Below are positions 1,851-49,724 of a stretch of 64,000 bases of DNA, in pieces. The notes under the pieces were generated by a model. The model did not search any database. It was not told where the DNA came from and saw nothing but the letters and a program-made list of their open reading frames with translations. Both the position numbers and the translations under genes were made by a program. The DNA is from Eledone cirrhosa (taxonomy: Eukaryota): NCBI GenBank assembly GCA_964016885.1, contig OZ024741.1, forward strand, positions 279,434,001-279,498,000, read 5' to 3'. Every line of letters begins with the position of its first letter. The first letter of the stretch is position 1.

Positions 1851-1893
<43 letters not shown>

Positions 1894-20962: not shown

Positions 20963-21063
20963 CTGAAAACAGATGCAAAAGAAAGAAAATGCTTTACAAA
21001 TTTCCTGATGATTTCTTTTGAATGAAACAGTTCTAGTCCTGTAGAAGCCATTTCTATATTAAA

Positions 21064-23944: not shown

Positions 23945-24034
23945 CAAACAATAGCCAATCGTGGGATAGTGAACATTAATGCAGGGTCATAGTCATCAAT
24001 CATCTCCTGAGTAAGAAGACCCAACTTTAGGGAT
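23945..24034 (-). CDS. ZFYVE28: LST2 exon
   Basis: (R)[29 protein letters not shown](C); ttgcag/gtaagt junctions. Confidence 0.95.
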
Positions 24035-24129
24035 CTGCAAAATAAGACAGAATAACTCATAAATTAATTCTTTCTACAATTATAACTTTTAGATTAATTC
24101 TTTTTACAAAGAGGGGTGGAGTGATTATA

Positions 24130-24630
24130 TTGGCTTCTGATTCAGGCACAAGGCCAGTAATTGGGAAAGTCTATTAAACAGACCCCAATGAGTTACTGGT
24201 ACTTTATTTTATTGACCCCTTAAGGATGAAAGGCATATCTAACCTTAGCAGGAACTCAGAATGTAAATGCATGTAAATATATGCCGCAAAGCATGGTGTC
24301 CGACGCTCTACCGATACTGTCAATCTGATTGATTATATTGACCCCAGAAGGATGAAAGGCAAAGTTGACCTCAGCAGGATTTGAACTCAGAACAAAGAAA
24401 AGCATTTTGTCTGACACTCTACCAACACTGGTTTTTAATTTAGGCACAAGGCCAGCAAATATGGTTAATGGGTAACGTAGATCAAATATACCCCACCAGT
24501 TAACTGGTACTTTATTTCATCAACCCTGGAAGGATAAATGATTAAGTTAACCTCAGAATATTAAAAGTCATAACTAAATAGTGCAAAGCATTTTGTCCGA
24601 CATTCTACCGATTCTGCCAATCTACCTCCC
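24130..24630 (-). mobile_element. Cluster of 2-3 diverged SINE-A copies
   Basis: Repeated ggcacaaggccag, ggatgaaaggcaaag and gatttgaactcagaa blocks. Confidence 0.7.
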
Positions 24631-24772
24631 TGAGTATGATTCATAAATGAATAAGAATTGATTTTTGTTTCTATAAAAATCAATGCTTACAATACACATG
24701 CTATGAGTGACAGGTCTTCTGAAGTTGAAATCCATTCTTTTTAAATTCACCTATTTTAACTGTTGTCTGAGA

Positions 24773-25481
24773 ATCATCACCACCACCACCCTCACCACCA
24801 ATAGTACCACTGCCACCATCATCACCACCAATAGTACCACTGCCACCATCAGCACCAACATTACCATCATCACCACCACCACCCTCACCACCAATAGTAC
24901 CACTGCCACCATCATCACCACCACCACCCTCACCACCAATAGTACCACTGCCACCATCATCACCACCACCACCCTCACCACCAATAGTACCACTGCCACC
25001 ATCATCACCACCACCACCCTCACCACCAATAGTACCACTGCCACCATCAGCACCAACATTACCATCATCACCACCACCACCCTCACCACCAATAGTACCA
25101 CTGCCACCATCAGCACCAACATTACCATCATCTCCACCACCACCCTCACCACCAATAGTACCACTGCCACCATCAGCACCAACATTACCATCATCACCAC
25201 CACCACCCTCACCACCAATAGTACCACTGCCACCATCAGCACCAACATTACCATCATCACCACCACCACCATCACCACCAATAGTACCACTGCCACCATC
25301 AGCACCAACATTACCATCATCACCACCACCACCCTCACCACCAATAGTACCACTGCCACCATCAGCACCAACATTACTATCATCACCACCACCACCCTCA
25401 CCACCAATAGTACCACTGCCACCATCAGCACCAACATTACTATCATCACCACCACCACCCTCACTAATATCATCATCATCA
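24773..25481. repeat. (ACC/ATC)-rich compound minisatellite with 63-bp and 45-bp units
   Basis: Unit accaccaccaccctcaccaccaatagtaccactgccaccatc[agcaccaacattaccatc]atc. Confidence 0.93.
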
Positions 25482-25892
25482 CTGTTTTATGTATTTCCCA
25501 TGCTTGGATGCATTAGACAGAATGTCACATTCTGAGGCTAGACTACTTAGGTGACATCTTGCTAGGAAATCTAGACATTAAACTGTGAGAGAGAGAGGGA
25601 GAGAGAGGGGAGTTAAAAATTAGTCCCCACAAAAATAGAGACAGGTACATTTATGTGAATTAGTGTATGCAGACATATGGCTGAACATAAAAAGTATATT
25701 TAATAAAAACCGAAGAGAAAATGTTTGGAAATATATGAGGCCCAATGGTTGAGATATGAAGTGAGTCAATTACTGAGTACATAGTCATCTTGCACAGCAC
25801 ATGTTGTTCATTTGGCCTTCTGAATGGCACACCTAGCACAAACTTGCCTTGAGTTTTTTTTGTAGAGCTGCCTGCCTTATGATGAGTCATAT

Positions 25893-26110
25893 GTCATGTA
25901 GCCTACTGCTCATCTCTAGTTTACACTATACTACTACAGTCATATCTCATGCAACCCACTGCTCATAAAAGGTAGCCCATGTCTGGTTTACACTATACTA
26001 CTACAGCAATATCTCATGTAGCCTACTGCTTGTAAAAGGTAGCCCATGTCTGTTTTAAACTATACTACTATACCCATATCTCAAGTAGCTCAGTGCTCAC
26101 AAAAGGTAGC
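25893..26110. repeat. Degenerate 67-bp tandem units ancestral to the 46-bp array
   Basis: cccatgtctg recurs at 25976, 26043 and 26110 (period 67). Confidence 0.85.
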
Positions 26111-29100
26111 CCATGTCTGGTTTACACCATACTACTACAGCCATGTCTCATGTAGCCCAGGTTTGGTTTACACCATACTACTACAGCCATGTCTCATGCA
26201 GCCCATGTCTGGTTTACACCATACTACTACAGCCATGTCTCATGCAGTCCATGTCTGGTTTACACCATACTACTACAGCCATGTCTCATGTAGCCCATGT
26301 CTGGTTTACACCATACTACAACAGCCATGTCTCATGTAGCCCAGGTTTGGTTTACACCATACTACTACAGCCATGTCTCATGTAGTCCATGTCTGGTTTA
26401 CACCATACTACTACAGCCATGTCTCATGCAGCCCATGTCTGGTTTACACCATACTACTACAGCCATGTCTCATGTAGCCCATGTCTGGTTTACACCATAC
26501 TACTACAGCCATGTCTCATGTAGTCCATGTCTGGTTTACACCATACTACTACAGCCATGTCTCATGTAGCCCATGTCTGGTTTACACCATACTACTACAG
26601 CCATGTCTCATGTAGCCCATGTCTGGTTTACACCATACTACTACAGCCATGTCTCATGCAGCCCATGTCTGGTTTACACCATACTACTACAGCCATGTCT
26701 CATGTAGCCCATGTCTGGTTTACACCATACTACTACAGCCATGTCTCATGTAGTCCATGTCTGGTTTACACCATACTACTACAGCCATGTCTCATGCAGC
26801 CCATGTCTGGTTTACACCATACTACTACAGCCATGTCTCATGTAGCCCATGTCTGGTTTACACCATACTACTACAGCCATGTCTCATGTAGTCCATGTCT
26901 GGTTTACACCATACTACTACAGCCATGTCTCATGTAGCCCATGTCTGGTTTACACCATACTACTACAGCCATGTCTCATGTAGCCCATGTCTGGTTTACA
27001 CCATACTACTACAGCCATGTCTCATGTAGCCCATGTCTGGTTTACACCATACTACTACAGCCATGTCTCATGTAGCCCATGTCTGGTTTACACCATACTA
27101 CTACAGCCATGTCTCATGTAGCCCATGTCTGGTTTACACCATACTACTACAGCCATGTCTCATGTAGCCCATGTCTGGTTTACACCATACTACTACAGCC
27201 ATGTCTCATGTAGCCCATGTCTGGTTTACACCATACTACTACAGCCATGTCTCATGTAGCCCATGTCTGGTTTACACCATACTACTACAGCCATGTCTCA
27301 TGTAGTCCATGTCTGGTTTACACCATACTACTACAGCCATGTCTCATGCAGTCCATGTCTGGTTTACACCATACTACTACAGCCATGTCTCATGTAGCCC
27401 ATGTCTGGTTTACACCATACTACTACAGCCATGTCTCATGTAGCCCAGGTCTGGTTTACACCATACTACTACAGCCATGTCTCATGCAGCCCATGTCTGG
27501 TTTACACCATACTACTACAGGCATGTCTCATGTAGCCCATGTCTGGTTTACACCATACTACTACAGCCATGTCTCATGTAGCCCAGGTCTGGTTTACACC
27601 ATACTACTACAGCCATGTCTCATGTAGCCCAGGTCTGGTTTACACCATACTACTACAGCCATGTCTCATGTAGCCCATGTCTGGTTTACACCATACTACT
27701 ACAGCCATGTCTCATGTAGCCCATGTCTGGTTTACACCATACTACTACAGCCATGTCTCATGTAGCCCATGTCTGGTTTACACCATACTACTACAGGCAT
27801 GTCTCATGCAGCCCATGTCTGGTTTACACCATACTACTACAGCCATGTCTCATGCAGTCCATGTCTGGTTTACACCATACTACTACAGCCATGTCTCATG
27901 CAGTCCATGTCTGGTTTACACCATACTACTACAGCCATGTCTCATGCAGTCCATGTCTGGTTTACACCATACTACTACAGCCATGTCTCATGCAGCCCAT
28001 GTCTGGTTTACACCATACTACTACAGCCATGTCTCATGTAGCCCATGTCTGGTTTACACCATACTACTACAGCCATGTCTCATGCAGCCCATGTCTGGTT
28101 TACACCATACTACTACAGCCATGTCTCATGTAGCCCATGTCTGGTTTACACCATACTACTACAGCCATGTCTCATGTAGTCCATGTCTGGTTTACACCAT
28201 ACTACTACAGCCATGTCTCATGTAGCCCATGTCTGGTTTACACGATACTACTACAGCCATGTCTCATGCAGCCCATGTCTGGTTTACACCATACTACTAC
28301 AGCCATGTCTCATGTAGCCCATGTCTGGTTTACACCATACTACTACAGCCATGTCTCATGTAGTCCATGTCTGGTTTACACCATACTACTACAGCCATGT
28401 CTCATGTAGCCCATGTCTGGTTTACACCATACTACTACAGCCATGTCTCATGCAGCCCATGTCTGGTTTACACCATACTACTACAGCCATGTCTCATGTA
28501 GCCCATGTCTGGTTTACACCATACTACTACAGCCATGTCTCATGTAGTCCATGTCTGGTTTACACCATACTACTACAGCCATGTCTCATGTAGCCCATGT
28601 CTGGTTTACACCATACTACTACAGCCATGTCTCATGCAGCCCATGTCTGGTTTACACCATACTACTACAGCCATGTCTCATGTAGCCCATGTCTGGTTTA
28701 CACCATACTACTACAGCCATGTCTCATGCAGTCCATGTCTGGTTTACACCATACTACTACAGCCATGTCTCATGTAGCCCATGTCTGGTTTACACCATAC
28801 TACTACAGCCATGTCTCATGTAGCCCATGTCTGGTTTACACCATACTACTACAGCCATGTCTCATGTAGTCCATGTCTGGTTTACACCATACTACTACAG
28901 CCATGTCTCATGCAGTCCATGTCTGGTTTACACCATACTACTACAGCCATGTCTCATGTAGTCCATGTCTGGTTTACACCATACTACTACAGCCATGTCT
29001 CATGTAGTCCATGTCTGGTTTACACCATACTACTACAGCCATGTCTCGTGTAGCCCAGGTCTGGTTTACACCATACTACTACAGCCATGTCTCATGTAGC

Positions 29101-32100
29101 CCATGTCTGGTTTACACCATACTACTACAGCCATGTCTCATGTAGCCCATGTCTGGTTTACACCATACTACTACAGCCATGTCTCATGTAGCCCATGTCT
29201 GGTTTACACCATACTACTACAGCCATGTCTCATGTAGTCCATGTCTGGTTTACACCATACTACTACAGCCATGTCTCATGCAGTCCATGTCTGGTTTACA
29301 CCATACTACTACAGCCATGTCTCATGTAGTCCATGTCTGGTTTACACCATACTACTACAGCCATGTCTCATGTAGTCCATGTCTGGTTTACACCATACTA
29401 CTACAGCCATGTCTCGTGTAGCCCATGTCTGGTTTACACCATACTACTACAGCCATGTCTCATGTAGCCCAGGTCTGGTTTACACCATACTACTACAGCC
29501 ATGTCTCATGTAGCCCAGGTCTGGTTTACACCATACTACTACAGCCATGTCTCGTGTAGCCCAGGTCTGGTTTACACCATACTACTACAGCCATGTCTCA
29601 TGTAGCCCATGTCTGGTTTACACCATACTACTACAGCCATGTCTCGTGTAGCCCAGGTCTGGTTTACACCATACTACTACAGCCATGTCTCATGTAGCCC
29701 AGGTCTGGTTTACACCATACTACTACAGCCATGTCTCGTGTAGCCCAGGTCTGGTTTACACCATACTACTACAGCCATGTCTCATGTAGCCCAGGTCTGG
29801 TTTACACCATACTACTACAGCCATGTCTCGTGTAGCCCAGGTCTGGTTTACACCATACTACTACAGCCATGTCTCATGTAGCCCATGTCTGGTTTACACC
29901 ATACTACTACAGCCATGTCTCGTGTAGCCCATGTCTGGTTTACACCATACTACTACAGCCATGTCTCGTGTAGCCCAGGTCTGGTTTACACCATACTACT
30001 ACAGCCATGTCTCATGTAGCCCATGTCTGGTTTACACCATACTACTACAGCCATGTCTCGTGTAGCCCAGGTCTGGTTTACACCATACTACTACAGCCAT
30101 GTCTCATGTAGTCCATGTCTGGTTTACACCATACTACTACAGCCATGTCTCGTGTAGTCCATGTCTGGTTTACACCATACTACTACAGCCATGTCTCATG
30201 TAGCCCAGGTCTGGTTTACACCATACTACTACAGCCATGTCTCATGTAGCCCAGGTCTGGTTTACACCATACTACTACAGCCATGTCTCGTGTAGCCCAG
30301 GTCTGGTTTACACCATACTACTACAGCCATGTCTCATGTAGCCCATGTCTGGTTTACACCATACTACTACAGCCCATGTCTCATGCAGCCCAGGTCTGGT
30401 TTACACCATACTACTACAGCCATGTCTCATGCAGTCCATGTCTGGTTTACACCATACTACTACAGCCATGTCTCATGTAGCCCATGTCTGGTTTACACCA
30501 TACTACTACAGCCCATGTCTCATGCAGCCCAGGTCTGGTTTACACCATACTACTACAGCCATGTCTCATGCAGTCCATGTCTGGTTTACACCATACTACT
30601 ACAGCCATGTCTCATGTAGTCCATGTCTGGTTTACACCATACTACTACAGCCATGTCTCATGTAGCCCATGTCTGGTTTACACCATACTACTACAGCCAT
30701 GTCTCATGCAGTCCATGTCTGGTTTACACCATACTACTACAGCCATGTCTCATGCAGCCCTTGTCTGGTTTACACCATACTACTACAGCCATGTCTCATG
30801 CAGCCCATGTCTGGTTTACACCATACTACTACAGCCATGTCTCATGTAGCCCATGTCTGGTTTACACCATACTACTACAGCCATGTCTCATGTAGCCCAT
30901 GTCTGGTTTACACCATACTACTACAGGCATGTCTCATGCAGCCCAGGTCTGGTTTACACCATACTACTACAGCCATGTCTCATGTAGCCCATGTCTGGTT
31001 TACACCATACTACTACAGCCATGTCTCATGCAGCCTAGGTCTGGTTTACACCATACTACTACAGCCATGTCTCATGCAGTCCATGTCTGGTTTACACCAT
31101 ACTACTACAGCCATGTCTCATGTAGCCCATGTCTGGTTTACACCATACTACTACAGCCATGTCTCATGCAGCCTAGGTCTGGTTTACACCATACTACTAC
31201 AGCCATGTCTCATGCAGCCCAGGTCTGGTTTACACCATACTACTACAGCCATGTCTCATGTAGCCCATGTCTGGTTTACACCATACTACTACAGCCATGT
31301 CTCATGCAGCCTAGGTCTGGTTTACACCATACTACTACAGCCATGTCTCATGCAGTCCATGTCTGGTTTACACCATACTACTACAGCCATGTCTCATGTA
31401 GCCCATGTCTGGTTTACACCATACTACTACAGCCATGTCTCATGCAGCCTAGGTCTGGTTTACACCATACTACTACAGCCATGTCTCATGCAGCCCAGGT
31501 CTGGTTTACACCATACTACTACAGCCATGTCTCATGTAGCCTAGGTCTGGTTTACACCATACTACTACAGCCATGTCTCATGCAGCCTATGTCTGGTTTA
31601 CACCATACTACTACAGCCATGTCTCATGTAGCCCATGTCTGGTTTACACCATACTACTACAGCCATGTCTCATGTAGCCCATGTCTGGTTTACACCATAC
31701 TACTACAGCCATGTCTCATGCAGCCCAGGTTTGGTTTACACCATACTACTACAGCCATGTCTCATGTAGCCCATGTCTGGTTTACACCATACTACTACAG
31801 CCATGTCTCATGCAGCCTAGGTCTGGTTTACACCATACTACTACAGCCATGTCTCATGCAGCCCATGTCTGGTTTACACCATACTACTACAGCCATGTCT
31901 CATGCAGCCCATGTCTGGTTTACACCATACTACTACAGCCATGTCTCATGTAGCCCATGTCTGGTTAACACCATACTACTACAGCCATGTCTCATGCAGC
32001 CCAGGTCTGGTTTACACCATACTACTACTACAGCCATGTCTCATGTAGCCCATGTCTGGTTTACACCATACTACTACAGCCATGTCTCATGTAGCCCAGG

Positions 32101-35100
32101 TCTGGTTTACACCATACTACTACAGCCATGTCTCATGCAGTCCATGTCTGGTTTACACCATACTACTACAGCCATGTCTCATGTAGCCCATGTCTGGTTT
32201 ACACCATACTACTACAGCCATGTCTCATGTAGCCCATGTCTGGTTTACACCATACTACTACAGCCATGTCTCATGTAGCCCATGTCTGGTTTACACCATA
32301 CTACTACAGCCATGTCTCATGTAGCCCATGTCTGGTTTACACCATACTACTACAGCCATGTCTCATGCAGCCCAGGTTTGGTTTACACCATACTACTACA
32401 GCCATGTCTCATGTAGCCCATGTCTGGTTTACACCATACTACTACAGCCATGTCTCATGCAGCCCAGGTCTGGTTTACACCATACTACTACAGCCATGTC
32501 TCATGCAGCCCAGGTCTGGTTTACACCATACTACTACAGCCATGTCTCATGCAGCCCAGGTCTGGTTTACACCATACTACTACAGCCATGTCTCATGCAG
32601 TCCATGTCTGGTTTACACCATACTACTACAGTCATGTCTCATGTAGCCCATGTCTGGTTTACACCATACTACTACAGCCATGTCTCATGCAGCCCAGGTC
32701 TGGTTTACACCATACTACTACAGCCATGTCTCATGTAGCCCATGTCTGGTTTACACCATACTACTACAGCCATGTCTCATGTAGCCCATGTCTGGTTTAC
32801 ACCATACTACTACAGCCATGTCTCATGCAGCCCAGGTCTGGTTTACACCATACTACTACAGCCATGTCTCATGCAGCCCAGGTCTGGTTTACACCATACT
32901 ACTACAGCCATGTCTCATGCAGCCCAGGTCTGGTTTACACCATACTACTACAGCCATGTCTCATGCAGCCCAGGTCTGGTTTACACCATACTACTACAGC
33001 CATGTCTCATGTAGCCCATGTCTGGTTTACACCATACTACTACAGCCATGTCTCATGTAGCCCATGTCTGGTTTACACCATACTACTACAGCCATGTCTC
33101 ATGTAGTCCATGTCTGGTTTACACCATACTACTACAGCCATGTCTCATGTAGCCCATGTCTGGTTTACACCATACTACTACAGCCATGTCTCATGTAGCC
33201 CATGTCTGGTTTACACCATACTACTACAGCCATGTCTCATGTAGCCCATGTCTGGTTTACACCATACTACTACAGCCATGTCTCATGTAGTCCATGTCTG
33301 GTTTACACCATACTACTACAGCCATGTCTCATGCAGCCCAGGTTTGGTTTACACCATACTACTACTGCCATGTCTCATGCAGCCCAGGTTTGGTTTACAC
33401 CATACTACTACAGCCATGTCTCATGCAGCCCAGGTCTGGTTTACACCATACTACTACAGCCATGTCTCATGTAGCCCATGTTTGGTTTACACCATACTAC
33501 TACAGCCATGTCTCATGTAGCCCATGTTTGGTTTACACCATACTACTACAGCCATGTCTCATGCAGCCTATGTCTGGTTTACACCATACTACTACAGCCA
33601 TGTCTCATGTAGCCCATGTCTGGTTTACACCATACTACTACAGCCATGTCTCATGCAGTCCAGGTTTGGTTTACACCATACTACTACAGCCATGTCTCAT
33701 GCAGCCCATGTCTGGTTTACACCATACTACTACAGCCATGTCTCATGCAGCCCAGGTCTGGTTTACACCATACTACTACAGCCATGTCTCATGTAGCCCA
33801 GGTCTGGTTTACACCATACTACTACAGCCATGTCTCATGCAGCCCAGGTCTGGTTTACACCATACTACTACAGCCATGTCTCATGTAGCCCATGTCTGGT
33901 TTACACCATACTACTACAGCCATGTCTCATGCAGCCCAGGTTTGGTTTACACCATACTACTACAGCCATGTCTCATGTAGCCCATGTTTGGTTTACACCA
34001 TACTACTACAGCCATGTCTCATGTAGCCCATGTTTGGTTTACACCATACTACTACAGCCATGTCTCATGTAGCCCATGTTTGGTTTACACCATACTACTA
34101 CAGCCATGTCTCATGTAGCCCATGTTTGGTTTACACCATACTACTACAGCCATGTCTCATGCAGCCCAGGTCTGGTTTACACCATACTACTACAGCCATG
34201 TCTCATGTAGCCCAGGTCTGGTTTACACCATACTACTACAGCCATGTCTCATGCAGCCCAGGTCTGGTTTACACCATACTACTACAGCCATGTCTCATGT
34301 AGCCCATGTCTGGTTTACACCATACTACTACAGCCATGTCTCATGCAGCCCAGGTTTGGTTTACACCATACTACTACAGCCATGTCTCATGCAGCCCAGG
34401 TCTGGTTTACACCATACTACTACAGCCATGTCTCATGTAGCCCATGTCTGGTTTACACCATACTACTACAGCCATGTCTCATGTAGCCCAGGTCTGGTTT
34501 ACACCATACTACTACAGCCATGTCTCATGCAGCCTAGGTCTGGTTTACACCATACTACTACAGCCATGTCTCATGTAGCCCAGGTCTGGTTTACACCATA
34601 CTACTACAGCCATGTCTCATGTAGCCCATGTTTGGTTTACACCATACTACTACAGCCATGTCTCATGCAGCCCATGTCTGGTTTACACCATACTACTACA
34701 GCCATGTCTCATGTAGCCCATGTTTGGTTTACACCATACTACTACAGCCATGTCTCATGTAGCCCATGTTTGGTTTACACCATACTACTACAGCCATGTC
34801 TCATGTAGCCCAGGTTTGGTTTACACCATACTACTACAGCCATGTCTCATGTAGCCCAGGTCTGGTTTACACCATACTACTACAGCCATGTCTCATGCAG
34901 CCTAGGTCTGGTTTACACCATACTACTACAGCCATGTCTCATGTAGCCCAGGTCTGGTTTACACCATACTACTACAGCCATGTCTCATGTAGCCCAGGTT
35001 TGGTTTACACCATACTACTACAGCCATGTCTCATGTAGTCCATGTCTGGTTTACACCATACTACTACAGCCATGTCTCATGTAGCCCATGTTTGGTTTAC

Positions 35101-38100
35101 ACCATACTACTACAGCCATGTCTCATGCAGCCCATGTCTGGTTTACACCATACTACTACAGCCATGTCTCATGTAGCCCATGTTTGGTTTACACCATACT
35201 ACTACAGCCATGTCTCATGTAGCCCATGTTTGGTTTACACCATACTACTACAGCCATGTCTCATGTAGCCCAGGTTTGGTTTACACCATACTACTACAGC
35301 CATGTCTCATGTAGCCCAGGTCTGGTTTACACCATACTACTACAGCCATGTCTCATGCAGCCTAGGTCTGGTTTACACCATACTACTACAGCCATGTCTC
35401 ATGTAGCCCAGGTCTGGTTTACACCATACTACTACAGCCATGTCTCATGTAGCCCAGGTTTGGTTTACACCATACTACTACAGCCATGTCTCATGTAGTC
35501 CATGTCTGGTTTACACCATACTACTACAGCCATGTCTCATGTAGCCCATGTTTGGTTTACACCATACTACTACAGCCATGTCTCATGCAGCCCATGTCTG
35601 GTTTACACCATACTACTACAGCCATGTCTCATGTAGCCCATGTTTGGTTTACACCATACTACTACAGCCATGTCTCATGTAGCCCATGTTTGGTTTACAC
35701 CATACTACTACAGCCATGTCTCATGTAGCCCAGGTTTGGTTTACACCATACTACTACAGCCATGTCTCATGTAGCCCAGGTCTGGTTTACACCATACTAC
35801 TACAGCCATGTCTCATGCAGCCTAGGTCTGGTTTACACCATACTACTACAGCCATGTCTCATGTAGCCCAGGTCTGGTTTACACCATACTACTACAGCCA
35901 TGTCTCATGTAGCCCAGGTTTGGTTTACACCATACTACTACAGCCATGTCTCATGTAGCCCAGGTCTGGTTTACACCATACTACTACAGCCATGTCTCAT
36001 GCAGCCTAGGTCTGGTTTACACCATACTACTACAGCCATGTCTCATGTAGCCCAGGTCTGGTTTACACCATACTACTACAGCCATGTCTCATGTAGCCCA
36101 GGTTTGGTTTACACCATACTACTACAGCCATGTCTCATGTAGTCCATGTCTGGTTTACACCATACTACTACAGCCATGTCTCATGTAGCCCATGTCTGGT
36201 TTACACCATACTACTACAGCCATGTCTCATGTAGCCCATGTCTGGTTTACACCATACTACTACAGCCATGTCTCATGTAGCCCATGTTTGGTTTACACCA
36301 TACTACTACAGCCATGTCTCATGCAGCCCATGTCTGGTTTACACCATACTACTACAGCCATGTCTCATGTAGCCCATGTTTGGTTTACACCATACTACTA
36401 CAGCCATGTCTCATGTAGCCCATGTTTGGTTTACACCATACTACTACAGCCATGTCTCATGTAGCCCATGTTTGGTTTACACCATACTACTACAGCCATG
36501 TCTCATGTAGCCCATGTTTGGTTTACACCATACTACTACAGCCATGTCTCATGTAGCCCATGTTTGGTTTACACCATACTACTACAGCCATGTCTCATGC
36601 AGCCCAGGTCTGGTTTACACCATACTACTACAGCCATGTCTCATGTAGCCCAGGTCTGGTTTACACCATACTACTACAGCCATGTCTCATGTAGCCCATG
36701 TTTGGTTTACACCATACTACTACAGTCATGTCTCATGCAGCCCAGGTCTGGTTTACACCATACTACTACAGCCATGTCTCATGTAGCCCATGTTTGGTTT
36801 ACACCATACTACTACAGCCATGTCTCATGCAGCCCAGGTCTGGTTTACACCATACTACTACAGCCATGTCTCATGTAGCCCAGGTCTGGTTTACACCATA
36901 CTACTACAGCCATGTCTCATGTAGCCCATGTTTGGTTTACACCATACTACTACAGCCATGTCTCATGCAGCCCAGGTTTGGTTTACACCATACTACTACA
37001 GTCATGTCTCATGCAGCCCAGGTCTGGTTTACACCATACTACTACAGCCATGTCTCATGTAGCCCAGGTCTGGTTTACACCATACTACTACAGCCATGTC
37101 TCATGTAGCCCACGTCTGGTTTACACCATACTACTACAGCCATGTCTCATGTAGCCCATGTCTGGTTTACACCATACTACTACAGCCATGTCTCATGCAG
37201 CCCAGGTTTGGTTTACACCATACTACTACAGCCATGTCTCATGCAGCCCAGGTTTGGTTTACACCATACTACTACAGCCATGTCTCATGTAGACCAGGTT
37301 TGGTTTACACCATACTACTACAGTCATGTCTCATGCAGCCCAGGTCTGGTTTACACCATACTACTACAGCCATGTCTCATGTAGACCAGGTCTGGTTTAC
37401 ACCATACTACTACAGCCATGTCTCATGCAGCCCAGGTCTGGTTTACACCATACTACTACAGCCATGTCTCATGTAGCCTAGGTCTGGTTTACACCATACT
37501 ACTACAGCCATGTCTCATGTAGCCCATGTCTGGTTTACACCATACTACTACAGCCATGTCTCATGCAGTCCATGTCTGGTTTACACCATACTACTACAGC
37601 CATGTCTCATGTAGCCCATGTCTGGTTTACACCATACTACTACAGCCATGTCTCATGTAGCCCATGTCTGGTTTACACCATACTACTACAGGCATGTCTC
37701 ATGCAGTCCATGTCTGGTTTACACCATACTACTACAGCCATGTCTCATGTAGCCCATGTCTGGTTTACACCATACTACTACAGCCATGTCTCATGTAGTC
37801 CATGTCTGGTTTACACCATACTACTACAGCCATGTCTCATGTAGCCCATGTCTGGTTTACACCATACTACTACAGCCATGTCTCATGTAGCCCATGTCTG
37901 GTTTACACCATACTACTACAGCCATGTCTCATGTAGCCCATGTCTGGTTTACACCATACTACTACAGCCATGTCTCATGTAGCCCATGTCTGGTTTACAC
38001 CATACTACTACAGCCATGTCTCATGTAGCCCATGTCTGGTTTACACCATACTACTACAGCCATGTCTCATGCAGCCCAGGTCTGGTTTACACCATACTAC

Positions 38101-41100
38101 TACAGCCATGTCTCATGCAGTCCATGTCTGGTTTACACCATACTACTACAGCCATGTCTCATGTAGCCCATGTCTGGTTTACACCATACTACTACAGCCA
38201 TGTCTCATGTAGCCCATGTCTGGTTTACACCATACTACTACAGCCATGTCTCATGTAGCCCATGTCTGGTTTACACCATACTACTACAGCCATGTCTCAT
38301 GTAGCCCATGTCTGGTTTACACCATACTACTACAGCCATGTCTCATGTAGCCCATGTCTGGTTTACACCATACTACTACAGCCATGTCTCATGCAGCCCA
38401 GGTCTGGTTTACACCATACTACTACAGCCATGTCTCATGCAGCCCATGTCTGGTTTACACCATACTACTACAGCCATGTCTCATGTAGTCCATGTCTGGT
38501 TTACACCATACTACTACAGCCATGTCTCATGCAGTCCATGTCTGGTTTACACCATACTACTACAGCCATGTCTCATGCAGTCCATGTCTGGTTTACACCA
38601 TACTACTACAGCCATGTCTCATGCAGCCCAGGTCTGGTTTACACCATACTACTACAGCCATGTCTCATGTAGCCTAGGTCTGGTTTACACCATACTACTA
38701 CAGCCATGTCTCATGTAGCCCATGTCTGGTTTACACCATACTACTACAGCCATGTCTCATGTAGCCCATGTCTGGTTTACACCATACTACTACAGCCATG
38801 TCTCATGTAGCCCATGTCTGGTTTACACCATACTACTACAGCCATGTCTCATGCAGCCCAGGTCTGGTTTACACCATACTACTACAGTCATGTCTCATGT
38901 AGCCCAGGTTTGGTCTACACCATACTACTACAGCCATGTCTCATGTAGCCCATGTCTGGTTTACACCATACTACTACAGCCATGTCTCATGCAGTCCATG
39001 TCTGGTCTACACCATACTACTACAGTCATGTCTCATGTAGCCCAGGTTTGGTCTACACCATACTACTACAGCCATGTCTCATGTAGCCCAGGTCTGGTTT
39101 ACACCATACTACTACAGCCATGTCTCATGTAGCCCAGGTCTGGTTTACACCATACTACTACAGCCATGTCTCATGTAGCCCATGTCTGGTTTACACCATA
39201 CTACTACAGCCATGTCTCATGTAGCCCATGTCTGGTTTACACCATACTACTACAGCCATGTCTCATGTAGCCCATGTCTGGTTTACACCATACTACTACA
39301 GCCATGTCTCATGCAGCCTAGGTCTGGTTTACACCATACTACTACAGCCATGTCTCATGCAGCCTAGGTCTGGTTTACACCATACTACTACAGCCATGTC
39401 TCATGCAGTCCATGTCTGGTTTACACCATACTACTACAGCCATGTCTCATGTAGCCCATGTCTGGTTTACACCATACTACTACAGCCATGTCTCATGTAG
39501 CCCATGTCTGGTTTACACCATACTACTACAGCCATGTCTCATGTAGCCCATGTCTGGTTTACACCATACTACTACAGCCATGTCTCATGTAGCCCATGTC
39601 TGGTTTACACCATACTACTACAGCCATGTCTCATGTAGCCCATGTCTGGTTTACACCATACTACTACAGCCATGTCTCATGCAGTCCATGTCTGGTTTAC
39701 ACCATACTACTACAGCCATGTCTCATGCAGTCCATGTCTGGTTTACACCATACTACTACAGCCATGTCTCATGCAGTCCATGTCTGGTTTACACCATACT
39801 ACTACAGCCATGTCTCATGTAGCCCAGGTCTGGTTTACACCATACTACTACAGCCATGTCTCATGCAGCCCAGGTCTGGTTTACACCATACTACTACAGC
39901 CATGTCTCATGTAGCCTAGGTCTGGTTTACACCATACTACTACAGCCATGTCTCATGCAGTCCATGTCTGGTTTACACCATACTACTACAGCCATGTCTC
40001 ATGTAGCCCATGTCTGGTTTACACCGTACTACTACAGCCATGTCTCATGTAGCCCATGTCTGGTTTACACCATACTACTACAGCCATGTCTCATGTAGCC
40101 CATGTCTGGTTTACACCATACTACTACAGCCATGTCTCATGTAGCCCATGTCTGGTTTACACCATACTACTACAGCCATGTCTCATGTAGTCCATGTCTG
40201 GTTTACACCATACTACTACAGCCATGTCTCATGTAGCCTAGGTCTGGTTTACACCATACTACTACAGCCATGTCTCATGCAGTCCATGTCTGGTTTACAC
40301 CATACTACTACAGCCATGTCTCATGTAGCCCATGTCTGGTTTACACCATACTACTACAGCCATGTCTCATGTAGCCCATGTCTGGTTTACACCATACTAC
40401 TACAGGCATGTCTCATGCAGTCCATGTCTGGTTTACACCATACTACTACAGCCATGTCTCATGTAGCCCATGTCTGGTTTACACCATACTACTACAGCCA
40501 TGTCTCATGCAGCCCATGTCTGGTTTACACCATACTACTACAGCCATGTCTCATGTAGCCCATGTCTGGTTTACACCATACTACTACAGCCATGTCTCAT
40601 GCAGTCCATGTCTGGTTTACACCGTACTACTACAGCCATGTCTCATGCAGCCCATGTCTGGTTTACACCATACTACTACAGCCATGTCTCATGCAGTCCA
40701 TGTCTGGTTTACACCATACTACTACAGCCATGTCTCATGTAGCCCATGTCTGGTTTACACCATACTACTACAGCCATGTCTCATGCAGTCCATGTCTGGT
40801 TTACACCGTACTACTACAGCCATGTCTCATGCAGCCCAGGTCTGGTTTACACCATACTACTACAGCCATGTCTCATGCAGTCCATGTCTGGTTTACACCA
40901 TACTACTACAGCCATGTCTCATGCAGTCCATGTCTGGTTTACACCATACTACTACAGCCATGTCTCATGCAGCCCATGTCTGGTTTACACCATACTACTA
41001 CAGCCATGTCTCATGTAGCCCATGTCTGGTTTACACCATACTACTACAGCCATGTCTCATGCAGCCTAGGTCTGGTTTACACCATACTACTACAGCCATG

Positions 41101-44100
41101 TCTCATGTAGCCCATGTCTGGTTTACACCATACTACTACAGCCATGTCTCATGCAGTCCATGTCTGGTTTACACCGTACTACTACAGCCATGTCTCATGC
41201 AGCCCAGGTCTGGTTTACACCATACTACTACAGCCATGTCTCATGCAGTCCATGTCTGGTTTACACCATACTACTACAGCCATGTCTCATGCAGTCCATG
41301 TCTGGTTTACACCATACTACTACAGCCATGTCTCATGCAGCCCATGTCTGGTTTACACCATACTACTACAGCCATGTCTCATGTAGCCCATGTCTGGTTT
41401 ACACCATACTACTACAGCCATGTCTCATGCAGCCTAGGTCTGGTTTACACCATACTACTACAGCCATGTCTCATGTAGCCCATGTCTGGTTTACACCATA
41501 CTACTACAGCCATGTCTCATGCAGTCCATGTCTGGTTTACACCGTACTACTACAGCCATGTCTCATGTAGCCCATGTCTGGTTTACACCATACTACTACA
41601 GCCATGTCTCATGCAGCCTAGGTCTGGTTTACACCATACTACTACAGCCATGTCTCATGCAGTCCATGTCTGGTTTACACCATACTACTACAGTCATGTC
41701 TCATGCAGCCCAGGTCTGGTTTACACCATACTACTACAGCCATGTCTCATGCAGCCTAGGTCTGGTTTACACCATACTACTACAGCCATGTCTCATGCAG
41801 CCCAGGTCTGGTTTACACCATACTACTACAGCCATGTCTCATGCAGCCTAGGTCTGGTTTACACCATACTACTACAGCCATGTCTCATGTAGTCCATGTC
41901 TGGTTTACACCATACTACTACAGCCATGTCTCATGTAGCCCATGTCTGGTTTACACCATACTACTACAGCCATGTCTCATGCAGTCCATGTCTGGTTTAC
42001 ACCATACTACTACAGCCATGTCTCATGTAGCCCATGTCTGGTTTACACCATACTACTACAGCCATGTCTCATGCAGCCCATGTCTGGTTTACACCATACT
42101 ACTACAGCCATGTCTCATGTAGCCCATGTCTGGTTTACACCATACTACTACAGCCATGTCTCATGTAGCCCATGTCTGGTTTACACCATACTACTACAGC
42201 CATGTCTCATGCAGCCCATGTCTGGTTTACACCATACTACTACAGCCATGTCTCATGTAGCCCATGTCTGGTTTACACCATACTACTACAGCCATGTCTC
42301 ATGTAGCCCAGGTCTGGTTTACACCATACTACTACAGCCATGTCTCATGCAGCCCATGTCTGGTTTACACCATACTACTACAGCCATGTCTCATGCAGTC
42401 CATGTCTGGTTTACACCATACTACTACAGCCATGTCTCATGTAGCCCAGGTCTGGTTTACACCATACTACTACAGCCATGTCTCATGCAGTCCATGTCTG
42501 GTTTACACCATACTACTACAGCCATGTCTCATGTAGCCCATGTCTGGTTTACACCATACTACTACAGCCATGTCTCATGCAGTCTATGTCTGGTTTACAC
42601 CATACTACTACAGCCATGTCTCATGTAGCCCATGTCTGGTTTACACCATACTACTACGGCCATGTCTCATGTAGCCCATGTCTGGTTTACACCATACTAC
42701 TACAGCCATGTCTCATGTAGCCCAGGTCTGGTTTACACCATACTACTACAGCCATGTCTCATGTAGCCCAGGTCTGGTTTACACCATACTACTACAGCCA
42801 TGTCTCATGTAGCCCAGGTCTGGTTTACACCATACTACTACAGCCATGTCTCATGTAGCCCATGTCTGGTTTACACCATACTACTACAGCCATGTCTCAT
42901 GTAGCCCAGGTCTGGTTTACACCATACTACTACAGCCATGTCTCATGTAGCCCAGGTCTGGTTTACACCATACTACTACAGCCATGTCTCATGTAGCCCA
43001 TGTCTGGTTTACACCATACTACTACAGCCATGTCTCATGTAGCCCATGTCTGGTTTACACCATACTACTACAGTCATGTCTCATGCAGCCCATGTCTGGT
43101 TTACACCATACTACTACAGCCATGTCTCATGTAGCCCATGTCTGGTTTACACCATACTACTACAGTCATGTCTCATGCAGCCCATGTCTGGTTTACACCA
43201 TACTACTACAGCCATGTCTCATGTAGCCCATGTCTGGTTTACACCATACTACTACAGTCATGTCTCATGCAGCCCATGTCTGGTTTACACCATACTACTA
43301 CAGCCATGTCTCATGTAGTCCATGTCTGGTTTACACCATACTACTACAGCCATGTCTCATGTAGCCCATGTCTGGTTTACACCATACTACTACAGCCATG
43401 TCTCATGTAGCCCATGTCTGGTTTACACCATACTACTACAGCCATGTCTCATGTAGCCCATGTCTGGTTTACACCATACTACTACAGTCATGTCTCATGC
43501 AGCCCATGTCTGGTTTACACCATACTACTACAGCCATGTCTCATGTAGTCCATGTCTGGTTTACACCATACTACTACAGCCATGTCTCATGTAGCCCATG
43601 TCTGGTTTACACCATACTACTACAGCCATGTCTCATGTAGCCCATGTCTGGTTTACACCATACTACTACAGCCATGTCTCATGTAGCCCATGTCTGGTTT
43701 ACACCATACTACTACAGCCATGTCTCATGTAGCCCATGTCTGGTTTACACCATACTACTACAGCCATGTCTCATGCAGTCCATGTCTGGTTTACACCATA
43801 CTACTACAGCCATGTCTCATGCAGTCCATGTCTGGTTTACACCATACTACTACAGCCATGTCTCATGCAGTCCATGTCTGGTTTACACCATACTACTACA
43901 GCCATGTCTCATGTAGCCCATGTCTGGTTTACACCATACTACTACAGCCATGTCTCATGCAGTCTATGTCTGGTTTACACCATACTACTACAGCCATGTC
44001 TCATGTAGCCCATGTCTGGTTTACACCATACTACTACGGCCATGTCTCATGTAGCCCATGTCTGGTTTACACCATACTACTACAGCCATGTCTCATGTAG

Positions 44101-47100
44101 CCCAGGTCTGGTTTACACCATACTACTACAGCCATGTCTCATGTAGCCCAGGTCTGGTTTACACCATACTACTACAGCCATGTCTCATGTAGCCCAGGTC
44201 TGGTTTACACCATACTACTACAGCCATGTCTCATGTAGCCCATGTCTGGTTTACACCATACTACTACAGCCATGTCTCATGTAGCCCAGGTCTGGTTTAC
44301 ACCATACTACTACAGCCATGTCTCATGTAGCCCAGGTCTGGTTTACACCATACTACTACAGCCATGTCTCATGTAGCCCATGTCTGGTTTACACCATACT
44401 ACTACAGCCATGTCTCATGTAGTCCATGTCTGGTTTACACCATACTACTACAGCCATGTCTCATGTAGCCCATGTCTGGTTTACACCATACTACTACAGC
44501 CATGTCTCATGCAGTCCAGGTTTGGTTTACACCATACTACTACAGCCATGTCTCATGTAGCCCAGGTTTGGTTTACACCATACTACTACAGCCATGTCTC
44601 ATGCAGTCCATGTCTGGTTTACACCATACTACTACAGCCATGTCTCATGCAGTCCATGTCTGGTTTACACCATACTACTACAGCCATGTCTCATGTAGCC
44701 CATGTCTGGTTTACACCATACTACTACAGCCATGTCTCATGCAGTCTATGTCTGGTTTACACCATACTACTACAGCCATGTCTCATGTAGCCCATGTCTG
44801 GTTTACACCATACTACTACGGCCATGTCTCATGTAGCCCATGTCTGGTTTACACCATACTACTACAGCCATGTCTCATGTAGCCCAGGTCTGGTTTACAC
44901 CATACTACTACAGCCATGTCTCATGTAGCCCAGGTCTGGTTTACACCATACTACTACAGCCATGTCTCATGTAGCCCAGGTCTGGTTTACACCATACTAC
45001 TACAGCCATGTCTCATGTAGCCCATGTCTGGTTTACACCATACTACTACAGCCATGTCTCATGTAGCCCAGGTCTGGTTTACACCATACTACTACAGCCA
45101 TGTCTCATGTAGCCCAGGTCTGGTTTACACCATACTACTACAGCCATGTCTCATGTAGCCCATGTCTGGTTTACACCATACTACTACAGCCATGTCTCAT
45201 GTAGTCCATGTCTGGTTTACACCATACTACTACAGCCATGTCTCATGTAGCCCATGTCTGGTTTACACCATACTACTACAGCCATGTCTCATGCAGTCCA
45301 GGTTTGGTTTACACCATACTACTACAGCCATGTCTCATGTAGCCCAGGTTTGGTTTACACCATACTACTACAGCCATGTCTCATGTAGCCCATGTCTGGT
45401 TTACACCATACTACTACAGCCATGTCTCATGTAGCCCAGGTTTGGTTTACACCATACTACTACAGCCATGTCTCATGTAGCCCATGTCTGGTTTACACCA
45501 TACTACTACAGCCATGTCTCATGCAGTCCATGTCTGGTTTACACCATACTACTACAGCCATGTCTCATGTAGCCCATGTCTGGTTTACACCATACTACTA
45601 CAGCCATGTCTCATGTAGCCCATGTCTGGTTTACACCATACTACTACAGCCATGTCTCATGTAGCCCAGGTCTGGTTTACACCATACTACTACAGCCATG
45701 TCTCATGTAGCCCAGGTTTGGTTTACACCATACTACTACAGCCATGTCTCATGCAGTCCATGTCTGGTTTACACCATACTACTACAGCCATGTCTCATGT
45801 AGTCCATGTCTGGTTTACACCATACTACTACAGCCATGTCTCATGTAGTCCATGTCTGGTTTACACCATACTACTACAGCCATGTCTCATGTAGTCCATG
45901 TCTGGTTTACACCATACTACTACAGCCATGTCTCATGTAGTCCATGTCTGGTTTACACCATACTACTACAGCCATGTCTCATGTAGCCCATGTCTGGTTT
46001 ACACCATACTACTACAGCCATGTCTCATGCAGTCCATGTCTGGTTTACACCATACTACTACAGCCATGTCTCATGTAGTCCATGTCTGGTTTACACCATA
46101 CTACTACAGCCATGTCTCATGTAGCCCATGTCTGGTTTACACCATACTACTACAGCCATGTCTCATGTAGTCCATGTCTGGTTTACACCATACTACTACA
46201 GCCATGTCTCATGTAGTCCATGTCTGGTTTACACCATACTACTACAGCCATGTCTCATGTAGTCCATGTCTGGTTTACACCATACTACTACAGCCATGTC
46301 TCATGCAGCCCAGGTTTGGTTTACACCATACTACTACAGCCATGTCTCATGTAGCCCATGTCTGGTTTACACCATACTACTACAGCCATGTCTCATGTAG
46401 CCCATGTCTGGTTTACACCATACTACTACAGCCATGTCTCATGTAGCCCAGGTTTGGTTTACACCATACTACTACAGCCATGTCTCATGTAGCCCATGTC
46501 TGGTTTACACCATACTACTACAGCCATGTCTCATGTAGCCCATGTCTGGTTTACACCATACTACTACAGCCATGTCTCATGTAGCCCAGGTTTGGTTTAC
46601 ACCATACTACTACAGCCATGTCTCATGTAGCCCATGTCTGGTTTACACCATACTACTACAGCCATGTCTCATGTAGCCCATGTCTGGTTTACACCATACT
46701 ACTACAGCCATGTCTCATGTAGCCCATGTCTGGTTTACACCATACTACTACAGCCATGTCTCATGTAGCCCATGTCTGGTTTACACCATACTACTACAGC
46801 CATGTCTCATGTAGCCCATGTCTGGTTTACACCATACTACTACAGCCATGTCTCATGTAGCCTAGGTCTGGTTTACACCATACTACTACAGCCATGTCTC
46901 ATGTAGCCCATGTCTGGTTTACACCATACTACTACAGCCATGTCTCATGTAGCCCAGGTCTGGTTTACACCATACTACTACAGCCATGTCTCATGTAGCC
47001 CATGTCTGGTTTACACCATACTACTACAGCCATGTCTCATGTAGCCCATGTCTGGTTTACACCATACTACTACAGCCATGTCTCATGCAGTCCATGTCTG

Positions 47101-48431
47101 GTTTACACCATACTACTACAGCCATGTCTCATGTAGCCCAGGTCTGGTTTACACCATACTACTACAGCCATGTCTCATGTAGCCCATGTCTGGTTTACAC
47201 CATACTACTACAGCCATGTCTCATGTAGCCCATGTCTGGTTTACACCATACTACTACAGCCATGTCTCATGTAGCCCAGGTTTGGTTTACACCATACTAC
47301 TACAGCCATGTCTCATGTAGCCCATGTCTGGTTTACACCATACTACTACAGCCATGTCTCATGTAGCCCATGTCTGGTTTACACCATACTACTACAGCCA
47401 TGTCTCATGTAGCCCATGTCTGGTTTACACCATACTACTACAGCCATGTCTCATGTAGCCCATGTCTGGTTTACACCATACTACTACAGCCATGTCTCAT
47501 GTAGCCCAGGTTTGGTTTACACCATACTACTACAGCCATGTCTCATGTAGCCCATGTCTGGTTTACACCATACTACTACAGCCATGTCTCATGCAGCCCA
47601 GGTTTGGTTTACACCATACTACTACAGCCATGTCATGTAGTCCATGTCTGGTTTACACCATACTACTACAGCCATGTCTCATGTAGTCCATGTCTGGTTT
47701 ACACCATACTACTACAGCCATGTCTCATGCAGCCCAGGTTTGGTTTACACCATACTACTACAGCCATGTCTCATGCAGCCTATGTCTGGTTTACACCATA
47801 CTACTACAGCCATGTCTCATGTAGCCCATGTCTGGTTTACACCATACTACTACAGCCATGTCTCATGCAGTCCAGGTTTGGTTTACACCATACTACTACA
47901 GCCATGTCTCATGCAGCCCATGTCTGGTTTACACCATACTACTACAGCCATGTCTCATGCAGCCCAGGTTTGGTTTACACCATACTACTACAGCCATGTC
48001 TCATGTAGTCCATGTCTGGTTTACAACATACTACTACAGCCATGTCTCATGCAGCCTATGTCTGGTTTACACCATACTACTACAGCCATGTCTCATGCAG
48101 CCCAGGTCTGGTTTACACCATACTACTACAGCCATGTCTCATGCAGCCTATGTCTGGTTTACACCATACTACTACAGCCATGTCTCATGTAGCCCATGTC
48201 TGGTTTACACCATACTACTACAGCCATGTCTCATGCAGTCCAGGTTTGGTTTACACCATACTACTACAGCCATGTCTCATGCAGCCCATGTCTGGTTTAC
48301 ACCATACTACTACAGCCATGTCTCATGCAGCCCAGGTTTGGTTTACACCATACTACTACTGCAGTCATATCTCACGCAGCCCAGGTTTGGTTTACACCAT
48401 ACTACTACTGCAGTCATATCTCACGCAGCCC
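26111..48431. repeat. 46-bp minisatellite/satellite array, ~485 copies (~22.3 kb), inside LST2 intron 24035-49634
   Basis: Consensus ccatgtctggtttacaccatactactacagccatgtctcatgtagc; highly homogeneous with a few recurring variant sites. Copy number is estimated from length/46. Confidence 0.99.
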
Positions 48432-49634
48432 ACTGTTCATAACAGGCTGCCCATGCTTTAACACTATACTAATACCACAGCCATTGTTACACCCTTTAGT
48501 AAGGCCCATAACTCTGTAAAGACTCAGTATTTGTCTCATTGATAACTGATTCTACTATTATTTCACAGTAAGATGTCACCTAGGGTGTTTGCACGAGTGT
48601 AAAATAGTGTTTTGAAAATTAAATAAACCAATATTTTTTTAAGATGTATTTTTAACCCTTGATGATTTAGCAGAAAATGTTTAAAAACAGGTTTGTTAAT
48701 TCAAATGTTTATAATAACTTTACAAATTGTTATGGAAATTTGTAATAAACGAAAGCCTTGAATTTTTAATGTGATGCAGTCATAGTGCTGTTACGTACTT
48801 TTCAAGAATATCTTACTAAAGGAGTAGTATGGAGAGAAATTACAACGATAGCCTACTTGAAGATATCTGAGTGAATAGCATGGGAGAGTTCAGAATGTTG
48901 ATGATGGACAGAGATCTTTGGAGTGTATGTTAAGAGTTAAAGAAAACGAGGCAACACAAACTACTTATTACTAGCAGCTATATTACAAAAGTCTGGAGTG
49001 ATGGATTCGTTTTAGCTACATGCCTGGAAAATAATATTTAATAAACCCCTTTAAAGCTTCTATTAACTGCCATTAAGTTGTGTAGGGTATAACAAAAAAA
49101 TAAATAAATAAACAGACAGTGCAAATAAGACATGATAGATATCTTAACTAACAAACACTCATTTGTTAATGTTGACACTTTGGATAGCAACTTACCTGAG
49201 ACTACCTCTGGTTTTATGAAACAAAAGCCATATATATTTAAAATGTTCCTAACAATATTGAAACCTACCATAATAATTTTTTTTTTTTTTTTAAGATCCT
49301 CCTTGTTAGGTTATGTTCCAAACATTATTATTATCATCATCAACATTTTTACATTAACTTTTCCATGCTGGCATGAGTTGAATGGGACTTTCTGATGTCA
49401 TGTTTAACAGCTGGATGCCCTTCTTAATTCCTAACACCAACTCTTTTAGTCACTTCTTACAACCAGCAGGGATATTCTAAACTGATATGTGTATCCAGTT
49501 TAGAATACATACAAAATGAATTTAATCACCCACCACCCCAATTTTTTTTTTTTATATTTTCAAAATTAAATGTACCACATGCAGTATACTTCAGTAGTAA
49601 TATGGTCACGAAAGATTCAAAGGATTTCACTCAC

Positions 49635-49724
49635 CTATGCACAGTTTCGGAAAACAAAACTGTCACCTCTTGCAATATATCATATTCTTTCATAGTCTTT
49701 ACAGGAACCATGGCACTGACATAA
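49635..49724 (-). CDS. ZFYVE28: LST2 exon
   Basis: (S)[29 protein letters not shown](R); ttacag/gtgagt junctions; in phase with exon 23945-24034. Confidence 0.94.

What the first reader, a model, noticed from the sequence alone, without database searches (positions are those of the whole stretch)
25893..48485. Birth record of a satellite: the 46-mer derives from a 67-mer preserved at both edges
Seen: the left edge has diverged 67-bp units (..catgtagcc-tactgcttgtaaaag-gtagcc-catg..). The right edge (48420-48485) returns to the long form (gcagcc-cactgttcataacag-gctgcc-catg). The 46-mer equals the 67-mer minus 21 bp between two gtagcc microhomologies. Inference: a microhomology-mediated deletion created a unit that expanded about 485-fold in place.
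Basis: partly seen in the sequence, partly recalled or inferred. Interest (0 to 1): 0.75.

Follow-up and report, generated by a model that had tools for sequence, protein, structure and literature searches.

The report
Transposon-end minisatellite with older edge units
A 22-kb block of 46-base repeats fills most of one intron in a likely octopus genome; its older 67-base unit, kept at both edges, is the tail of a small DNA transposon plus 19 neighbouring bases, and likely lost 21 bases between two short repeats before expanding, a clear example of a known route from transposon to tandem repeat.

Summary
Observation confirmed: 484 short units (479 exactly 46 bp) lie between three 67-bp units on the left and one on the right. 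The 46-mer is the 67-mer minus 21 bp between two GTAGCCCA copies, plus two substitutions.

48 of the 67 bp are the 3' end of a dispersed short transposon (MITE) with hAT/Buster-type 8-bp target duplications; the other 19 bp look like its target site and flank. The MITE body abuts the array. That fixes the direction: 67 is ancestral.

The 46-mer junction occurs only here (467 of 467 matches), but the 67-mer also forms a short array 2.27 Mb away. The two MITE bodies and flanks are not close relatives, so the unit likely passed between two independent MITE copies (inferred, about 55%). Both junctions are seen in contigs of one sample. Sister-species test not possible.

Verdict: a transposon-derived minisatellite, new member of a known kind. 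The scan noted similar arrays elsewhere in this genome (e1-8841468, e1-10326979).

The parts
24035..49634 (-). Host intron (25.6 kb, GT-AG) of a lateral signaling target protein 2 (LST2, FYVE) homolog; the array fills about 22.6 kb of it
   Evidence: In-frame splice 49635/24034 (a second in-frame acceptor at 24055 is possible); tblastn of P0001 maps residues 173-206 and about 204-232 to either side; P0001 named by NCBI
49635..49724 (-). Exon upstream of the array
23945..24034 (-). Exon downstream of the array
25798..25912 (+). Body of a ~165-bp hAT-type MITE (model positions 30-144), running into the first unit; first 29 bp and left target duplication not recognisable
   Evidence: nhmmer 80.6 bits, E 1.5e-25, model from 17 other copies
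25885..25937 (+). 53-bp edge unit: a separate 14-bp deletion, likely between two CTGCTCAT copies; its terminal variant is shared with unit 2 of L001; not amplified
   Evidence: microhomology inferred from the L001 unit
25938..26138 (+). Three diverged 67-bp units (81-87% alike): 48 bp MITE 3' end + 8 bp target-site-like GTTTACAC + 11 bp flank
25986..26004 (+). 19-bp non-MITE spacer (example copy); found only here and at L001
   Evidence: pattern counts 488=482+6 and 492=485+7, plus one chance-level reverse hit
26106..26113 (+). GTAGCCCA in the terminal inverted repeat of the last left 67-mer: where the 46-bp period starts
26139..48411 (+). Array of 484 short units (46-mer: 27 bp MITE + 19 bp spacer), 2.5% from consensus, five common variant sites, local multi-unit duplications
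48314..48411 (+). Two 49-bp edge units; the outer one mixes the start of the right 67-mer with the 46-mer junction
48412..48478 (+). Right-edge long-form unit (67 bp; terminal repeat clipped by about 3 bp, spacer 3 bp longer)
   Evidence: nhmmer 24 bits, E 3.5e-8
48479..48484 (+). AGCCAT, in register with the unit start: either the flank microhomology that seeded the 67-bp duplication or the stump of a further unit
   Evidence: sequence; role inferred

Best explanation
The array is a single-locus intronic minisatellite whose 67-bp ancestor is the 3' end of a hAT-type MITE plus 19 bp of likely target site and flank, and whose 46-bp unit likely arose by one slip between two GTAGCCCA copies and then likely expanded in place by unequal exchange. 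Steps: (1) shown: a ~165-bp MITE body abuts the array and its last 48 bp are the first 48 bp of the 67-mer. (2) Inferred, about 60%: the 67-mer was born here by tandem duplication of MITE end plus flank, using AGCCAT inside the MITE and in the flank. (3) Inferred, about 55%: several units were copied by non-allelic gene conversion or template switching into an independent copy of the same MITE 2.27 Mb away (L001). (4) Shown as a sequence relation, inferred as an event, about 90%: a T-to-A change in the terminal repeat lengthened the shared GCCCA to GTAGCCCA, and a slip there (21-bp loss, or the equivalent 46-bp duplication) made adjacent 46-mers. (5) Inferred from known concerted evolution: unequal exchange and conversion amplified and homogenised the centre and left old units at both ends. 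No function is implied; it is most likely neutral intron filler and probably length-polymorphic (untested).
For: MITE: 20 of 27 dispersed hits had a 5' inverted repeat, 10 of those 20 had a perfect 8-bp duplication and 17 had at least 6/8; short subfamily 15 of 22 at least 6/8; 195 exact matches to the 3'-end pattern. Single locus: 467 genome-wide junction matches, all in the window. Microhomology: 1 of 1793 possible deletions. The family and L001 have GGTTG or GGCTG in the terminal repeat and keep the 21 bp; the left 67-mers here have GGTAG. Second locus: same spacer and 67-bp period; unit ends of the two loci average about 80% identity against 75% between family members and cluster on a tree (2 changes against 8.2 shuffled, 0 of 500). 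The MITE bodies are only 63% alike (47 of 75), the lowest of 18 comparisons for each, family mean 76% (binomial P 1.6e-4 against 81%). No collinear homology or LST2 paralog in 100 kb around L001. Turnover: 17- and 19-unit exact repeated runs against at most 8 in 30 shuffles; all four allele pairs common at sites 7 bp apart.
Against: The AU test does not reject a shared origin of the two MITE bodies (p 0.088, 91 columns), and no branch in either tree is well supported. The window's 5' inverted repeat and left target duplication are not recognisable, so GTTTACAC is not shown to be this insertion's own target site. L001's left 8-mer matches neither its first nor its last right 8-mer well (3 of 8 each, read). 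A 9-bp word is shared just left of both MITEs (null 50 of 1699 and 46 of 2974), a weak hint of shared flank. AGCCAT at the right end may be a stump, not a seed. No surviving 67-mer has the perfect 8-bp pair. Copies were found with queries that include the 8-mer after the terminal repeat, which biases the TA count. No transposase was found.
Confidence: 0.8

Rival explanations
1. Composite transposition: the MITE end plus 19 bp duplicated once, and the composite (5' repeat to outermost 3' repeat) then transposed as a unit, giving the two loci; the 46-mer arose later here.
For: L001 starts at an intact 5' repeat and ends exactly on a 3' repeat; the loci are on one chromosome, 2.27 Mb apart, in the same orientation; AU p 0.088 does not reject sister bodies.
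Against: The bodies are the least similar pair (63%) while spacers match at 18 of 19; 0% of 200 bootstrap trees group them; no matching target duplication around the L001 array; only two loci carry the spacer.
Confidence: 0.25
2. The two loci are remnants of an old segmental duplication that copied MITE, array and flanks together.
For: A 9-bp word shared left of both MITEs (P about 0.015-0.03).
Against: No similarity in 500-bp flanks or the right flank (850 of 991 null scores as high); only interspersed repeats shared over 100 kb; no LST2 paralog.
Confidence: 0.08
3. The 46-mer was born by a 46-bp duplication, not a 21-bp deletion: slippage between the terminal GTAGCCCA of one unit and the inner copy of the next.
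For: The 46-bp period starts exactly at the terminal copy (26106) and ends at the inner copy of the right unit; two positions are fixed or nearly fixed across the 46-mers, as expected from one template.
Against: Three of the five common 46-mer variants also occur among 67-mers of the two loci, and all five lie within 11 bp at the junction (P 0.007), which hints at more than one template. This is a variant of the best explanation: same junction, same homology.
Confidence: 0.4
4. The long array is an assembly artefact, an over-expanded short repeat.
For: No read or contig laid here spans the array.
Against: Both junctions are in contigs; depth on 46-mers is 900-3700 against 6.85; 41 different 46-bp unit sequences with regional frequency shifts and local duplications.
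Confidence: 0.04
5. The array is selected for a function, for example regulating LST2 or acting as a chromatin element.
For: It lies in an intron of a conserved gene.
Against: No Rfam match at E 0.1 in 25400-26600; only weak predicted folding (no shuffle control); many other minisatellites nearby; the same MITE family throws off other arrays.
Confidence: 0.05

Closest known systems
Maize CRM1TR tandem repeats (Sharma et al. 2013, PMC3648361; passages read)
   Same: Transposon-derived tandem repeat at two loci about 1.4 Mb apart; the authors propose short-homology deletions for the first unit and intrachromosomal gene conversion, possibly into another copy of the element, for the second locus.
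   Different: LTR retrotransposon, centromeric, unit internal to the element. Here a DNA-transposon end with non-element bases, a 67/46-bp unit, in an intron.
MITE-derived satellites: Xstir/Xmix and miDNA4 of Xenopus (seen only through review passages, PMC9659126 and PMC12628747)
   Same: A MITE, including its terminal repeat, supplies the monomer; short direct repeats of 5 bp or more are proposed to drive deletions and expansions.
   Different: Those repeats are internal to the MITE and multi-locus. Here the unit crosses the MITE boundary and the derived 46-mer is single-locus.
TE-derived human minisatellites and the Haber-Louis direct-repeat model (Ahmed and Liang 2012, PMC3389668; section 3.4 and passages read)
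   Same: Minisatellite born from part of a TE between 5-20 bp direct repeats; partial-element repeats next to a fuller element.
   Different: Most of the arrays that study could not explain have two units; this one has 484 and keeps two generations of unit.
Drosophila Responder satellite, homogeneous centre and variant ends (Khost et al. 2017, PMC5411766; passages read)
   Same: Variant units at both ends, high-copy variants in the middle.
   Different: No change of unit length or MITE origin in the passages seen; much larger heterochromatic locus.
Buster-family hAT MITEs such as Drosophila Mar (PMC3517528; passages read)
   Same: Short CAG-starting terminal repeats, 8-bp nnnTAnnn target duplication, no coding capacity.
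   Different: No transposase relic was found for this family in the loci examined.

Membership tests
hAT MITE (source element) | Short terminal inverted repeats (5-27 bp) | tested here: met
   5' repeat called in 20 of 27 and 22 of 31 (8 loci shared). In the window's own copy only the 3' repeat survives.
hAT MITE (source element) | 8-bp target site duplication | tested here: met
   10 of 20 perfect, 17 of 20 at least 6/8; 6 of 22 perfect, 15 of 22 at least 6/8. Not recognisable for the window copy or L001.
hAT MITE (source element) | Short, non-coding, dispersed | tested here: met
   Forms of about 165, 290, 350 and 450-490 bp; 195 exact 3'-end matches; 1433 first-look candidates.
Buster family of hAT | nnnTAnnn target consensus | tested here: met
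   TA at positions 4-5 in 25 of 27 right 8-mers and 25 of 31; queries included a TA-bearing 8-mer, so biased upward; 4 of 5, found by internal sequence. Definition from PMC3517528.
Buster family of hAT | Transposase falls in the Buster clade | tested here: inconclusive
   No autonomous copy or transposase-like ORF seen in 12 longer loci; no genome-wide transposase search was run.
TE-derived minisatellite | Head-to-tail unit of tens of bp homologous to part of a TE | tested here: met
   48 of 67 and 27 of 46 bp align to the MITE end.
TE-derived minisatellite | Short direct repeats at the birth junction | tested here: met
   GTAGCCCA for the 46-mer; AGCCAT for the 67-mer is suggestive only.
TE-derived minisatellite | Length polymorphism between individuals | not testable with these tools
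   RAD runs X5 and X6 do not cover the locus.
Classical satellite DNA | Very long or multi-locus heterochromatic arrays | tested here: not met
   One 22-kb array in a gene intron; chromatin state not testable.
Satellite carried inside a MITE (miDNA4 or DTC84 type) | Array enclosed by both terminal repeats and one target duplication, and spread by transposition | tested here: not met
   The unit includes the terminal repeat and outside bases; spacer at two loci only; no enclosing duplication. The family's separate 31-bp repeat does lie between the terminal repeats in L138.

The most novel reading that the evidence does not exclude
Two loci keep a near-complete pedigree of one repeat: a MITE end duplicated with 19 bp of host DNA, jumped without transposase into another MITE copy 2.27 Mb away by ectopic conversion, and at one locus a single point change that lengthened a microhomology from 5 to 8 bp triggered a shorter unit that swept to 484 copies, while a second deletion variant (53 bp) did not. 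Dispersed MITE ends would then act as landing pads that let host-derived tandem units spread.
Probability: 0.45. Interest if true: 0.5.

Novelty: new member of a known kind. Interest (0 to 1): 0.3.

Why it matters
It is an unusually legible case of how a tandem repeat starts and changes unit length. The dispersed MITE gives an outgroup that fixes the direction of change, and L001 is a natural control that kept the 67-mer and stayed at eight units. It could serve as a test locus for what decides which unit expands, and it shows one way octopus-type introns swell (88% of this intron). Each step has precedent, and no function is indicated.

Tried and rejected
Segmental duplication: no collinear homology over 100 kb or in 500-bp flanks. 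Third spacer-bearing locus: one reverse 2-mismatch hit at C2:94.46 Mb, equal to the control count and with no MITE end beside it. Other MITE ends followed by a repeat of themselves: 0 matches, but the pattern was too strict to match even the window's units, so it says little. One search had a pattern one base too long (4 hits); one search corrected it. Autonomous element: none in 12 loci. Sister species: the genome search holds no relatives. Contigs of organism A (run X1) cover part of the intron at about 92% identity and the exon, but give no depth on the 46-mer or either junction; an uncovered part proves nothing, so this is at most a weak hint that the array is lineage-specific. RAD runs were uninformative. 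Rfam: no match. Protein atlas: no usable hit for one exon. A left target duplication in the window was looked for by eye; the best candidate matches 5 of 8 and was not accepted. No regular higher-order repeat: the best lags reach 0.25 against a 0.14 baseline. Paper searches listed no report of this locus, this MITE family, or a TE-end-plus-flank unit moved by ectopic conversion. The library lacks most subscription papers, and no supplements were read.
Full report
Observation. The array is as described. TRF finds a 46-bp period at 26106-48408 (484.7 copies, 96%) and a 67-bp period at 25911-26159. Splitting gives 479 units of 46 bp, five of 44-49 bp, and four of 67 bp, three left and one right. 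The leftmost unit (25885-25937) is a 53-mer with its own 14-bp deletion, and the right long unit (48412-48478) is followed in register by AGCCAT. In the majority sequence of the three left 67-mers, removing 21 bp between two GTAGCCCA copies gives the 46-mer except at 2 positions. This is the only one of 1793 possible 5-40 bp deletions with more than 5 bp of homology. No single surviving unit has the perfect pair. Contigs from one sample reproduce both junctions and show depth of 900-3700 on the 46-mer against 6.85 on the flank; that sample may be the assembly's own, and nothing laid spans the array.

Context. The genome is 3.0 Gb. A FYVE exon of the host gene is 97% identical to a protein named lateral signaling target protein 2 homolog of Octopus sinensis, so this is likely an octopus. 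Mapping that protein puts the array in a 25.6-kb intron on the minus strand.

What the 67-mer is. A genome search with the left edge gave 41 matches: three at one locus 2.27 Mb away (L001) and 38 dispersed hits of about 55 bp (39 of 89 candidates scored). In the 27 dispersed loci fetched, the match is the 3' end of a short element. 20 of 27 had a matching 5' inverted repeat; 10 of these 20 had a perfect 8-bp duplication and 17 had at least 6 of 8. TA sits at positions 4-5 in 25 of 27 right-hand 8-mers (the query biases this count). That is the Buster-type hAT signature given in PMC3517528 (passages). A model built from 17 copies of the ~165-bp subfamily aligns to window 25798-25912 (positions 30-144, E 1.5e-25), directly against the array, and its last 48 positions align to each 67-mer. 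So the 67-mer is 48 bp of MITE end plus 19 bp of other sequence, of which the first 8 look like a target site. Because dispersed copies carry the 21 bp, the 67-mer is ancestral. No transposase was found in 12 longer loci, so Buster membership rests on the ends only.

Where the units occur. Whole-genome pattern counts equal the counts in the window plus L001: 467 = 467 + 0 for the 46-mer junction, 488 = 482 + 6 and 492 = 485 + 7 for the spacer, with one reverse hit at control level. The 46-mer is single-locus in this assembly; the spacer is at two loci. L001 is a whole MITE followed by seven more 3' ends, ending on a terminal repeat, with no 46-mers.

How the two loci relate. Units share the spacer (18 of 19), the period, and private variants; for example the terminal variant of the window's 53-mer recurs in L001 unit 2. 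Their 48-bp ends average about 80% identity against 75% within the family and cluster on a tree (0 of 500 shuffles as low). The MITE bodies are 63% alike over 75 columns, the lowest of 18 comparisons for each, against a family mean of 76%. Flanks show no homology beyond one 9-bp word (P about 0.015-0.03), and 100 kb around L001 share only interspersed repeats with the window. The simplest reading is that units were copied from one MITE copy into another through their shared end. Against it: the AU test does not reject sister bodies (p 0.088), no branch is well supported (five short or truncated copies were left out of the body tree and one out of the end tree), and neither locus shows a clean target duplication. 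I put transfer at about 55%, composite transposition at 25%, segmental duplication at 8%. The window is the likelier donor because here the spacer runs on into unique DNA with AGCCAT in register; that is inference.

How the 46-mer arose and grew. The family has GGTTG and L001 has GGCTG or GGTTG in the terminal repeat, leaving 5 bp of homology with the inner GCCCA. The left 67-mers here have GGTAG, giving 8 bp. A slip at this pair makes two adjacent 46-bp segments, whether by losing 21 bp or by duplicating 46 bp; the sequence cannot tell these apart. The units are 2.5% from consensus overall and 0.22% outside five common sites, against 13-19% among the left 67-mers, so amplification or homogenisation is recent. 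The five sites lie within 11 bp at the junction (P 0.007) and occur in many combinations; exact runs of 17 and 19 units recur where 30 shuffles give at most 8. This fits unequal exchange and conversion, which leave variant units at array ends (PMC5411766, passages).

Comparison. MITE ends and terminal repeats as monomer sources are reviewed in PMC9659126 and PMC12628747 (passages). Birth between short direct repeats is covered in PMC3389668 (section 3.4). The closest whole case is maize CRM1TR, two loci 1.4 Mb apart with proposed conversion between element copies (PMC3648361, passages). The same MITE family also carries a separate 31-bp repeat: 84 copies in L138 and 483 exact junction matches, the first 100 listed falling at 16 loci. 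Earlier notes of this scan describe other MITE-derived arrays in this genome; they are unchecked, and I did not confirm that e1-8841468 is this family. My eight paper searches listed nothing on this locus or family; the library is incomplete.

Verdict. Real, well resolved, and of a known kind. Interest 0.3.

Noticed in passing
L138 (C25:10.006-10.009 Mb), L009, and at least 16 loci: The ~290-bp form of the same MITE carries a separate 31-bp tandem repeat from its subterminal region: 2 copies in L009, 84 in L138, 483 exact junction matches genome-wide.
   Followed up: partly
L001:1294-1915 (C2:281.732 Mb): Whole ~150-bp MITE followed by seven more 3' ends at 67-bp spacing; the five middle units are 96-100% alike and the edge units diverged, a small version of the same edge pattern.
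   Followed up: yes
L001:2420-3254: Another minisatellite of roughly 35-45 bp with variable CA runs, about 500 bp from the 67-mer array.
   Followed up: no
window 24773-25464: A 63-bp (also 45/30-bp) CAC-rich minisatellite of about 10 copies in the same intron, some 330 bp left of the MITE.
   Followed up: no
window 2494-3022: 28-bp minisatellite, 19 copies, in an intron of a Deltex-like gene.
   Followed up: no
window 1800-5000 (+): Exons of a RING plus Deltex C-terminal domain gene, tail to tail with the LST2 homolog.
   Followed up: partly
window 58376-61594 (-): Broken LINE-like element with reading frames that look like endonuclease and reverse transcriptase (recognised by eye, not scanned); 2.4 kb of it is 94% identical to a copy at C2:281.771 Mb, 39 kb from L001. 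A second LINE-like frame lies at 62438-63526.
   Followed up: no
window 48662-48819: Fragment of a very high-copy repeat 180 bp right of the array (very high summed contig depth).
   Followed up: no
window 19243-20967 (-): A long LST2 exon with Q, S and N runs, 83% identical to P0001 against 94-100% for most other exons.
   Followed up: no
L146 and L148 (C3:306.3 and 315.2 Mb): Two ~489-bp MITE copies with the same target duplication and shared flank, likely a duplicated segment.
   Followed up: no
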